Source of the DNA: Phyllosticta citribraziliensis
Lineage: Eukaryota
NCBI RefSeq assembly: GCF_038025025.1
Contig: NW_027117349.1
Span: 372,001 to 436,000, forward strand
Direction: 5' to 3'
Length of the DNA stretch: 64,000 bases
Shown here: positions 54,689 to 56,708 of the stretch, piece after piece
How positions within the stretch are numbered: position 1 is the first letter of the stretch
How the letters are laid out: every line of letters begins with the position of its first letter
Made by a program: the position numbers and the translations under genes
Notes under the pieces: model-generated
Databases searched by the model: none
What the model was told of the DNA's origin: nothing
Seen by the model: the letters and a program-made list of their open reading frames with translations, nothing else

Positions 54689-55210
54689 AAGAAATGACAA
54701 CAATTTTGAGCAACCCTTTAGAAAGCTCCATTGTAATGCTCTGTGGTTCTTCGAGACATTTGCCAGGATTCAAAGAGTGACAGCTTTATTTACAAGGGTA
54801 AACCCCAAAAGTCTTCTGGCAAGATGTCACTAGGATATTGGTATTCAAGCCGTGCCTCTCAACAGAACATACACATTCAACTCACGCAGAGTGTTCAAGA
54901 AATGTTTGTATGGCGCGCTCGCCCACTCATTTGCATGAGCAGACAAGCACACCGGTTTTATAATTTTACTATCTTCCCCAAAGACCAGATGTTTCCAGCC
55001 TCATAAGAATACAAAGTGTTTTTTATGATTTTCGTTTCCAAGCTGCGTCCGCGACCTCCGGAGGCTTCCTCAAACGCCGGCCTCCAGGAACTTGTCGCCT
55101 GCCATCACCACCGTTCGATAGTGTCGAGAAGGTGGCGTCGTCGGTATTGTCGTCGTTGTCGATGGCAAGTCGCGGCCTTCATGTTGTTGATTTCCCTTGG
55201 AAGGGGAAAT

Positions 55211-55270
55211 TTACATGACGGTGCAGTACTTGGTGTTGTCGTTCTTCATCGGGTTCCACTTGCGGCCCAT
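55211..55270 (-). CDS. Putative a-factor-like (farnesylated lipopeptide) mating pheromone precursor, 19 aa MGRKWNPMKNDNTKYCTVM
   Basis: The reverse complement of 55211-55270 is ATG GGC CGC AAG TGG AAC CCG ATG AAG AAC GAC AAC ACC AAG TAC TGC ACC GTC ATG TAA. It has a C-terminal CaaX (CTVM), the start context tcaatcaaaATG, G/C-ending codons throughout and an upstream TATA box. Confidence 0.8.
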   Translation of the reverse strand: MGRKWNPMKNDNTKYCTVM

Positions 55271-55375
55271 TTTGATTGATTTGAGTTGGTTGGTTGGGAA
55301 AAAAGAGTGTAGTCGAGTTGGTAGTACCGAAGTATGCTGGTGAGGAAGAAGAGGAGGACGCGTGGGCTGCTGGGG

Positions 55376-55382
55376 ATTTATA
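55376..55382 (-). promoter_or_regulatory. TATA box of the CaaX peptide gene
   Basis: TATAAAT on the minus strand, about 106 bp upstream of the ATG at 55270, followed by a CT-rich then CA-rich leader. Confidence 0.65.
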
Positions 55383-55458
55383 GCTTCGGACTACTGCTGA
55401 GCTGCTGCCTTTGCTGCCATTTTGGGCGGCGTACAAGCAGAGTTGGGTGGGGTGGGCT

Positions 55459-55497
55459 CTATTGAGACTTGTTTACGGATGTCGTTGGGCTATTGAG
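55459..55497 (+). promoter_or_regulatory. Two direct copies of CTATTGAG (candidate mating-type transcription factor sites)
   Basis: CTATTGAGA at 55459 and 55490, 31 bp apart. A third TATTGAG core lies on the opposite strand at 55611-55617. Confidence 0.55.
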
Positions 55498-56708
55498 ATG
55501 ACATTTGGGAAAGGGGGGAGTGCTTTGTTGGTGCGTATGGATCTTTTGTAGTGAACAGGAAGACAATGGCGAGGTGGCACACAGACGGTGCCTTTGTGAG
55601 GAGCAAATGCCTCAATACGTCAATTCCAGTCTAGGTGTTACATTTTTGCTGTATAGACGTTGTCTCCTAGTGTCCAGAATAAGTGGCGACACTGGCGCTT
55701 GCGGCGGCAAGCAGCTGGCTGCGGAAGGCGTTTGGTGGATGCTCCACCTCGTGGGCATCTCCACGTGGACTACTTTTGACCGGGAACAATGCTGGCGGGC
55801 AGGATGGCGTCAACATTTGAGATCTGGTGCTTCGAAATTGAAAGGCAGCAGCACGCGAATGAGTGCCGAGGGCGCTGGTTGTGAGTACACCGAGGATTAC
55901 CTCTTTCCACACCTTTGAAGATGTCAAGAATCCCGTGAATGACTTCAACGAACTCAAATGATGGCCTCGCCCTGGGTGCTGAATAGACTCCATGATGTGT
56001 GTGTGGGTCAATGAACTCATGACAAGGATACACTGCGAAAGAAGCATTGAATGAATATGTGTTATCAGCTGTAGTGGCGCTCATGGCAAACGAGGGTTGG
56101 GAGCGGCGTCATCGACTGTCTTTGAATGAATGCCTTGGCGAGGTCGAGACAAGTCGATGGTCCCGTTATTCCGCCTAGGCACCGTGTCCAAGAATGTCTG
56201 CTCGGATATCTGAATGCTTGCCCAGCGATTTGAGAAGCTTTGCTAGTACCTCCAGACACTTAACCAAGCAGCCACTTGCGGTATTTCGATCGAATGGGTG
56301 CACGATGTTCTTGTTGCCCCAGAATAGGTCTCTCTCCGTGGTAGCTTTTGACATCATAACGATCCAAAGACGTCAAATTCCGATTCGAACAATGCGATCC
56401 TCAAATGCCAGAGGCACTCCAAGCGCGGTCAACTTGTCAATCATGATCCCTTTTTGACACCTCCTTGGCTGCAGTCACGGCAATTCCAGGCACACCAGCG
56501 GGGGTGTTTGTGGGTTGGAAATCTCTTTGGATTCGGCAGCTTTCGAAAAGAAAAAAGGTCCTTTTGAATCCCGAGCCGATTTCCTAGCTCTGTTTGCAAA
56601 ATCCCCACAGAGTCATTTGCTCTTTTACGCACATGCGCCGTCCATATGAACCCTTGATTCGTCCCACATGCTCCCAATCCTCTTTCACACCCGCTTTAAC
56701 TGGTCAAT

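What the first reader, a model, noticed from the sequence alone, without database searches (positions are those of the whole stretch)
55376..55617. Tandem CTATTGAG motifs upstream of the candidate pheromone: possible mating-type factor control
Seen: CTATTGAGA occurs twice (55459, 55490), 31 bp or about three helical turns apart, roughly 80-115 bp beyond the TATA box. There is also an inverted TATTGAG core at 55611-55617 and an HMG-type ACAAT at 55563. From memory, CTATTGAG is the motif reported for the alpha-box factor MAT1-1-1 in Penicillium chrysogenum. Inference: this independently supports a mating role. It is also unexpected, because a-class pheromones are normally MAT1-2-activated. The sites could mean repression by MAT1-1-1, shared recognition by the HMG factor MAT1-2-1, or rewired/homothallic expression.
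Basis: partly seen in the sequence, partly recalled or inferred. Interest (0 to 1): 0.7.

Follow-up and report, generated by a model that had tools for sequence, protein, structure and literature searches.

The report
Alpha-box promoter on lipopeptide micro-gene
In a Phyllosticta fungus, a tiny duplicated gene for a lipid-tailed peptide carries the DNA signature of genes switched on by the MAT1-1 mating-type factor, although such peptides normally belong to the opposite mating type, whose ordinary pheromone gene sits elsewhere with the opposite signature.

Summary
The motifs are present and far beyond chance. CTATTGAG at 55459 and 55490 is the genome's only such pair within 10-40 nt. The same element clusters before the alpha-pheromone and STE3 genes, and the strain carries MAT1-1-1. 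The downstream 19-aa CAAX ORF has an identical second copy on another contig. Its promoter is otherwise unalignable but keeps alpha-box cores at similar positions. The genome also holds a separate triple-CaaX a-type precursor whose promoter has no alpha-box but a cluster of ATTGTY, like STE2. Matrices trained on other genes put the 19-aa genes with alpha-pheromone, STE3 and STE13, not with STE2, STE14, RAM1-like and STE6-like. Best reading (0.6): these are MAT1-1-1 activating sites, and the gene is a MAT1-1-specific prenylated micropeptide rather than the canonical a-pheromone under repression. Binding, direction of control and function are untested, and cross-species conservation of the sites could not be read. 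The ACAAT and the three-helical-turn spacing carry no weight.

The parts
55211..55270 (-). 19-aa ORF ending in the CAAX box CTVM; identical peptide encoded at G000:C11:62848-62907
   Evidence: one synonymous difference in 60 nt, ungapped flank identity 20 of 60 and 16 of 60
55377..55382 (-). TATA box (TATAAA), -112 from ATG; copy 2 has it at -120
55459..55466 (+). alpha-box (MAT1-1-1-type) site 1, CTATTGAG, -189, antisense to the ORF
55478..55485 (-). 8-mer shared with the copy-2 promoter next to its CAATAG; possible partner site, unknown
55490..55497 (+). alpha-box site 2, CTATTGAG, -220, antisense to the ORF
55523..55529 (-). AACAAAG, HMG (Ste11/PaHMG5-type) core, -259; copy 2 has two full (A/G)ACAAAGAA matches at -321 and -246
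   Evidence: consensus from PMC3730723
55563..55567 (+).
   Evidence: 1.6 per kb background; a-type matrix score not significant, 94 of 1069 windows score as high
55611..55617 (-). alpha-box core 3, TATTGAG, -347, sense to the ORF; copy 2 has TATTGAG at the same -347
55017..55377 (.). stretch covered by a separate contig of RNA-type run X2, over the ORF and its copy-specific flanks (strand and level unknown)

Best explanation
The motifs are binding sites for the alpha-box factor MAT1-1-1 and act as upstream activating elements, probably with a Ste11/HMG5-type HMG factor at the ACAAAG sites between them. They place the 19-aa CAAX gene and its second copy in the MAT1-1-specific regulon together with the alpha-pheromone and STE3. 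The product would be farnesylated and methylated at CTVM and is most likely a second, MAT1-1-made lipopeptide signal, distinct from the canonical a-pheromone (the triple-CaaX gene on C16). Shown here: motif presence, clustering, regulon sorting by sequence, gene duplication, presence of MAT1-1-1. Inferred: binding, activation, translation, prenylation, export and signalling role.
For: YTATTGAG pairs within 150 nt, in any orientation, fall at 5 loci in the genome. Three are the alpha-pheromone promoter, the STE3 promoter and this promoter; the other two are an SMC-type coding sequence and a spacer between ribosomal protein genes, read by eye. TATTGA cores in 700 nt upstream: alpha-pheromone 5, STE3 3, copy 1 3, copy 2 2, STE13 2, and 0 for STE2, triple-CaaX, STE14, RAM1-like, STE6-like, KEX2 and MAT1-1-1. 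An alpha matrix trained only on alpha-pheromone and STE3 ranks copy 1 above all 1069 background windows, and copy 2 and STE13 with 12 of 1069 as high. An a matrix trained on STE2 and triple-CaaX picks out STE14 (1 of 1069), RAM1-like (21) and STE6-like (25) but not copy 1 (94) or copy 2 (454). The two promoters align no better than shuffles upstream of TATA (94 of 500), yet share TATTGAG at -347, CAATAGCC and AACAAAG, so the sites travel with the peptide gene, not with a neighbour. In A. fumigatus, the five genes with paired motifs at -238 to -519 and ppgA head the list of MAT1-1-1-activated genes, in either orientation (PMC8022922 Table 1). In S. macrospora the a-type ppg2 falls in the MAT1-1-1 deletion (as cited in PMC4559316). 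Two RNA-type runs with 0-1 other letters cover the ORF (weak).
Against: No binding or expression-by-mating-type data. The number of direct pairs in the genome (4) does not exceed the reversed control (5); the argument rests on which genes they mark. The A. fumigatus list was partly selected from up-regulated genes, so it is biased to activation. F. graminearum PPG2 rises 91.5-fold without MAT1-1-1, and P. anserina FMR1 represses lipopeptide-processing genes, so repression has genetic precedent. P. chrysogenum MAT1-2-1 also binds a CTATTGAG probe in vitro. Copy 2 has no perfect CTATTGAG. KEX2, a MAT1-1-1 target in Penicillium, has no site here. The likely exporter (STE6-like) carries the a-type signature, which sits badly with secretion from MAT1-1 cells. 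RNA cover is low, unstranded, ends at different places in the two runs, could be PIG-P read-through, and the runs' mating type is unknown; run X5 has no cover over the ORF. Motif conservation in a relative could not be read (table cut). The matrices rest on 8 and 10 training sites from two promoters each.
Confidence: 0.6

Rival explanations
1. MAT1-1-1 binds the sites and represses a second a-type pheromone gene that is driven by MAT1-2-1 or a Ste11/HMG5-type factor at the ACAAAG sites, so that STE3-bearing MAT1-1 cells do not stimulate themselves.
For: CAAX peptides are MAT1-2-specific in the textbook heterothallic scheme (PMC6562746). GzPPG2 is up 91.5-fold in the MAT1-1-1 deletion. FMR1 represses the isoprenylcysteine methyltransferase and probably STE6 in P. 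anserina. Alpha-box sites flank HMG cores in both copies, and copy 2 has two full PaHMG5 consensus sites.
Against: The a-signature genes that would equally need repression (triple-CaaX, STE2, STE14, STE6-like) have no alpha-box. Neither copy has the ATTGTY cluster of those genes. STE3 shows the same alpha-box plus ACAAAGAA grammar and is a known activated target. P. anserina MFP is FPR1-activated without reported FMR1 repression. No paper I read shows repression through this motif.
Confidence: 0.17
2. Both MAT proteins use the sites, alone or as a heterodimer, so the gene is on in both mating types or only where both factors meet; the wiring may be a carry-over from the homothallic ancestor proposed for Phyllosticta.
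For: MAT1-2-1 binds the tom1 CTATTGAG probe, cooperatively with MAT1-1-1. In V. dahliae both MAT proteins bind and activate both pheromone promoters in heterologous assays. Homothallism is the reconstructed ancestral state (10.1101/2020.04.14.040725). Copy 1 has two ATTGTY (-297, -520).
Against: In this genome the TATTGA and ATTGTY classes separate cleanly across 12 promoters, which argues for distinct specificities; the F. graminearum MAT1-2-1 core is ATTGTT. The two ATTGTY of copy 1 are within chance (P 0.12).
Confidence: 0.15
3. The sites are chance matches, a dead relic, or serve another transcript (a divergent RNA towards RPL28).
For: The 8-mer is not enriched genome-wide, and 2 of the 5 paired loci are not mating genes. 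RNA contigs cover 55673-56700 on the far side of the sites.
Against: Unique close pair, 0 of 1212 windows with three cores, recurrence at an unlinked second copy, and frameshifting indels in a relative across 55849-56159 exclude a conserved protein gene there.
Confidence: 0.08

Closest known systems
MAT1.1 motif of P. chrysogenum and A. fumigatus MAT1-1-1 (CTATTGAG; (T/C)(T/C)ATTGA(G/T/C)) at ppg1/ppgA, pre1/preA, tom1, cp9 (PMC8022922, PMC10512297)
   Same: Identical core, 1-3 copies within 500 nt of the start codon, mixed orientation; marks alpha-pheromone and STE3 here too.
   Different: Here in a Dothideomycete and in front of a CAAX lipopeptide ORF; no CAAX target is named in the passages read; no binding data here.
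a-factor-class pheromone genes (Podospora MFP, Fusarium PPG2, yeast multi-copy a-factors; PMC3125171, PMC4559316, 10.1101/2021.09.28.462209)
   Same: Very short ORF, CAAX-stop, Asn 10 residues before the Cys, Tyr next to the Cys, two copies identical in protein with unrelated flanks, TATA promoter with HMG cores.
   Different: Only 19 aa, basic N-terminus, no Ser/Thr-rich leader or GY; promoter has the alpha-box signature, not the ATTGTY signature; a separate a-signature triple-CaaX gene exists in the same genome, with an unrelated repeat peptide.
Putative Leotiomycete a-factor (B. cinerea BCIN_13g03330 family; PMC10569646)
   Same: CTVM end; reported expressed in MAT1-1 isolates.
   Different: That family is 45-64 aa with a Ser/Thr-rich N-terminus; better look-alikes of it lie elsewhere in this genome (C8:420070, C8:587687) and lack the alpha-box cluster.
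PaHMG5/Ste11 TR-box input to pheromone genes (PMC3730723)
   Same: (A/G)ACAAAGAA twice in copy 2, once in STE3 and once in the MAT1-1-1 promoter, against 0.03-0.04 per kb background.
   Different: Copy 1 has only the 7-nt core; I did not identify an HMG5 orthologue in the genome.

Membership tests
MAT1-1-1 alpha-box cis-element | Match to (T/C)(T/C)ATTGA(G/T/C) | tested here: met
   Sites at 55459 and 55490 match fully; the third (GTATTGAG) matches the core only (consensus)
MAT1-1-1 alpha-box cis-element | Clustered within 1 kb upstream of a start codon, above background | tested here: met
MAT1-1-1 alpha-box cis-element | Same element at alpha-pheromone and STE3 but not STE2 in the same genome | tested here: met
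   5, 3 and 0 TATTGA cores in 700 nt; KEX2 has none
MAT1-1-1 alpha-box cis-element | Cognate alpha-box gene present | tested here: met
   PF04769 at G000:C6:1444344
MAT1-1-1 alpha-box cis-element | Conserved in orthologous promoters of other species | tested here: inconclusive
   A relative covers 55454-55738 with 23-27 other letters, but their places were cut from the table; no syntenic orthologue in 80 metagenome loci; the paralogue keeps cores
MAT1-1-1 alpha-box cis-element | Bound by MAT1-1-1; expression depends on it | not testable with these tools
   needs EMSA/ChIP and mutants
Canonical a-factor pheromone gene | Short ORF ending in CAAX-stop, no signal peptide | tested here: met
   no hydrophobic leader by inspection
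Canonical a-factor pheromone gene | Asn cleavage motif 5-20 residues before the Cys; several copies per genome | tested here: met
   Asn6 gives a 10-residue product (criterion); two copies; both loci seen in organism B
Canonical a-factor pheromone gene | MAT1-2-type regulatory signature (ATTGTY cluster as at STE2) | tested here: not met
   0 TATTGTY in either copy; a-matrix ranks 94 and 454 of 1069; the triple-CaaX gene meets it instead
Canonical a-factor pheromone gene | Ser/Thr-rich N-terminus and GY before CAAX (Sordariomycete/Leotiomycete pattern) | tested here: not met
   basic N-terminus, KY before Cys (pattern)
Canonical a-factor pheromone gene | MAT1-2-specific expression; farnesylated, exported, activates STE3 | not testable with these tools
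   only unstranded RNA contigs of unknown mating type

The most novel reading that the evidence does not exclude
Phyllosticta has a third mating peptide: a MAT1-1-specific lipopeptide beside the alpha-pheromone and the MAT1-2 a-pheromone. Because its precursor is wired to MAT1-1-1 while the exporter and processing genes carry the MAT1-2 signature, the mature signal may be released efficiently only where both factors share a cytoplasm (after fertilisation, or in homothallic relatives): a coincidence detector for successful cell fusion. Alternatively it tunes STE3 in the cell that makes it.
Probability: 0.25. Interest if true: 0.85.

Novelty: new variant of a known kind. Interest (0 to 1): 0.64.

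Why it matters
Ascomycete mating is taught as one unmodified peptide from MAT1-1 cells and one lipopeptide from MAT1-2 cells. A prenylated peptide wired into the MAT1-1 regulon, beside an ordinary a-pheromone, would add a component to that scheme. The comparison also yields two testable cis-signatures for a Dothideomycete (TATTGA for MAT1-1 genes, ATTGTY for MAT1-2 genes). These can sort hidden pheromone candidates, and they warn that a small CAAX ORF is not automatically the a-factor. If repression is true instead, these would be the direct sites behind a repression so far shown only genetically in the papers I read.

Tried and rejected
Phylogenetic footprinting through PIG-P synteny: 80 metagenome loci showed no CAAX orthologue and no RAD16, RPL28, DUF2015 or SAP49 neighbour. 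Footprinting through contigs of a relative: the promoter is covered but the places of differences were not listed. A recalled alpha-pheromone pattern gave 4 hits against 3 control hits and missed the gene; it was found through the motif pair. TATTGAG-N-CAATAG gave 29 hits against 25 control and TATTGA-N-RACAAAG gave 191 hits against 49: neither is specific. ATTGTTC pairs (23 against 1) include STE2 but mostly lie at unrelated genes, so the bare 7-mer is no a-specific marker. KEX1 was not identified among the S10 peptidases. PDB search did not settle the STE6 assignment; the Atlas top name is an a-pheromone efflux pump, tied at score 1.00 with multidrug transporters, so it stays 'STE6-like'. 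No MAT1-2-1 or HMG5 was found, but intron-split HMG boxes can be missed. A protein-level search for relatives of the 19-aa peptide was not possible, so its range outside the genus is open. The Atlas gave no usable hit for the triple-CaaX precursor. Lack of cover over the ORF in run X5 and over the promoter in X1 and X2 proves nothing by itself. The three-helical-turn idea and the lone ACAAT were rejected.

Full report
Observation. The window is G000:C12:372001-436000 of a 31.35-Mb, 22-contig fungal genome. Its PIG-P protein is 98% identical to Phyllosticta citrichinensis, 91% to P. citricarpa and 89% to P. capitalensis, so it is a Phyllosticta (Botryosphaeriales, Dothideomycetes). CTATTGAG lies at 55459 and 55490, TATTGAG inverted at 55611-55617, ACAAT at 55563 and a TATA box at 55377-55382. 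They are upstream of a minus-strand 19-codon ORF, 55270-55211, MGRKWNPMKNDNTKYCTVM, between PIG-P and RPL28 (RPL28 named by eye).

Is it chance? Two copies in 64 kb are not unusual (34 of 100 shuffles), and the 8-mer is not enriched genome-wide (275 against 258 reversed control). The close pair is unique in the genome, with about 0.04 expected. None of 1212 background 400-nt windows has three TATTGA cores, and 6 have two. The background is own-genome sequence fetched for other purposes, about 0.5 Mb, and includes coding DNA; among 361 windows under 53% GC, 3 have two cores and none three. ACAAT occurs 1.6 times per kb, so the single copy means nothing.

The motif is the local MAT1-1 element. 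The strain has MAT1-1-1 at C6:1444344, between an SMP-domain gene and APN2. No MAT1-2-1 was seen there or among the HMG boxes found (intron-split boxes may be missed). This fits the roughly 5-kb heterothallic locus described for Phyllosticta, as in P. citribraziliensis (10.1101/2020.04.14.040725); the species is not established here. YTATTGAG pairs within 150 nt give 4 direct loci (control 5), 2 convergent loci and 1 divergent locus, 5 distinct loci in all. Three are the alpha-pheromone promoter (C2, five cores; precursor recognised by its signal peptide, KR sites and CxxPGQPC repeats, no Pfam hit), the STE3 promoter (three cores) and this promoter. The other two are an SMC-type coding sequence and a ribosomal-protein spacer, read by eye. 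The count of pairs is thus not above control; the evidence lies in which genes they mark.

A second copy. A CAAX-stop pattern gave 61 hits; 53 were examined and the 8 that end in TGG were not fetched. One is an identical peptide at C11:62848-62907, and no third exact copy was found. The coding sequences differ by one synonymous base, while the flanks share 20 of 60 and 16 of 60 letters. Upstream of TATA the promoters align no better than shuffles (94 of 500). Yet both have TATTGAG at -347, a CAATAGCC (-225, -215) and AACAAAG (-259, -246), and copy 2 adds TTATTGAC at -156 and two full (A/G)ACAAAGAA. Copy 2 has no perfect CTATTGAG. A DNA run of a related organism shows loose ends at both ends of the ORF that resemble the copy-2 flanks, so both loci exist there (compared by eye).

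It is not the canonical a-pheromone. I found it at C16:311516-311722, picked by eye from 40 pattern hits, the rest not examined. Its 1-kb promoter has no TATTGA and eight ATTGT on one strand, three of them TATTGTY at -404, -385 and -368, like STE2 (four ATTGTY, no TATTGA). ATTGTT is the MAT1-2-1 core in F. graminearum (PMC4559316). I trained an alpha matrix on 8 sites from alpha-pheromone and STE3, and an a matrix on 10 sites from STE2 and triple-CaaX, then scored 12 promoters against 1069 background windows. Alpha matrix: copy 1 is reached by 0 windows, copy 2 by 12, STE13 by 12. A matrix: STE14 by 1, RAM1-like by 21, STE6-like by 25, copy 1 by 94, copy 2 by 454. The training genes rank first by construction. 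The processing genes were not in training and sort as expected, and their own loci are in the background. KEX2 and the MAT1-1-1 promoter score on neither. RAM1-like and STE6-like are my assignments, and start codons were chosen by eye.

Expression. I laid 4 of 22 listed runs, all as contigs. X2 (RPL28 introns spliced, no other letters) has a separate contig over 55017-55377. In X1 the PIG-P contig runs on to 55280. X5, from another organism, has no cover over the ORF. The contigs give no strand or level, the two ends differ, PIG-P read-through is possible and mating types are unknown, so this is a weak hint only. X4 covers 55454-55738 with 23 and 27 other letters, but their places were cut from the table, so conservation of the sites could not be read. 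Frameshifting indels in X4 across 55849-56159 argue against a protein gene on the other side of the sites.

How it most likely works. MAT1-1-1 binds the clustered sites and, with an HMG factor at the ACAAAG cores, activates the micro-gene in MAT1-1 cells along with alpha-pheromone and STE3 (inferred, 0.6). CTVM would be farnesylated, trimmed and methylated (established CAAX pathway; inferred here). Cleavage after Asn6 would give a 10-residue lipopeptide (criterion from 10.1101/2021.09.28.462209) unlike the triple-CaaX repeat. I read it as a second lipopeptide signal. Because the STE6-like exporter has the a signature, export from pure MAT1-1 cells is doubtful; the peptide may act on the cell's own membrane or STE3, or be released where both MAT factors meet. 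Rivals: repression (0.17; GzPPG2 up 91.5-fold without MAT1-1-1, FMR1 repression in Podospora), shared use by both MAT proteins or a homothallic carry-over (0.15), and chance or another target (0.08).

Known versus new. The motif is known from Eurotiomycetes. The ORF works like an a-factor precursor in anatomy but fails the regulatory test for the canonical a-pheromone, so I do not file it as one. Ten paper searches showed no Dothideomycete a-factor study, no Phyllosticta pheromone study and no CAAX micropeptide under a MAT1-1-1 motif cluster; the library lacks most subscription papers. The nearest report is V. dahliae, where both MAT proteins bind the a-type ppg2 promoter through AACAAT (PMC11077750).

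What I saw of each paper. PMC8022922: passages and section 15. PMC10512297: passages and section 16. 10.1101/2020.04.14.040725: abstract and passages. PMC10569646, PMC3125171, PMC4559316, PMC13097639, PMC3730723, PMC6562746, PMC9073689, PMC11077750, PMC13037118 and 10.1101/2021.09.28.462209: passages. Becker et al. 2015 and the S. macrospora result: only as cited by those papers. A 2025 report of an Aspergillus terreus a-factor-like pheromone is recalled only. No supplements were read; target lists there could hold an unannotated CAAX target.

Verdict. Observation confirmed; interpretation partly supported and redirected. New variant of a known kind; interest 0.64.

Noticed in passing
L296:4516-4722 (G000:C16:311516-311722, +): 68-aa triple-CaaX precursor (CTVQ, CTVQ, CSVM) with a TATA at -183 and an ATTGTY cluster; best candidate for the canonical a-pheromone of this genome.
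   Followed up: partly
L161:3449-3508 (G000:C11:62848-62907, +): Second copy of the 19-aa gene; neighbouring ORFs were listed but not identified.
   Followed up: partly
L262 (G000:C8:420070, -) and L160 (G000:C8:587687, +): Two related Ser-rich, Cys-rich CAAX micro-ORFs (45 and 48 aa), resembling the putative Leotiomycete a-factor family; promoters have 1 and 0 TATTGA and no ATTGTY.
   Followed up: partly
L260:1965-1981 (G000:C2:1385365): Near-palindrome of two inverted alpha-box cores two bases apart, about 480 nt past the end of an ORF; target unknown.
   Followed up: no
window 55673-56700: RNA-type contigs cover the spacer between the promoter and the RPL28 3' end in three runs; long RPL28 read-through or a divergent non-coding RNA. 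Indels in a relative argue against coding.
   Followed up: partly
window 55470-55485: A forkhead-like TGTTTAC (label recalled) between sites 1 and 2, absent from copy 2, and an 8-mer shared by both copies beside CAATAG.
   Followed up: no
genome-wide, L137-L159: ATTGTTC pairs within 60 nt number 23 against 1 for the reversed control; most are not at mating genes, perhaps sites of another HMG factor.
   Followed up: partly
L012:5935-7479 (G000:C6:1445935-1447479, +): ORF without Pfam match between MAT1-1-1 and APN2, probably MAT1-1-8 as described for the genus; the MAT1-1-1 promoter has an (A/G)ACAAAGAA at -90.
   Followed up: no
L022:548-970 and L259 (G000:C2:1078400 region, -): Alpha-pheromone precursor appears split by an intron, with three slightly different CxxPGQPC repeats and no Pfam match.
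   Followed up: partly
L063, about 3 kb downstream of PIG-P, minus strand: 55-aa Gly/Pro-rich ORF ending CIIM in an unrelated metagenomic fungal contig; may be the last exon of a longer gene.
   Followed up: no
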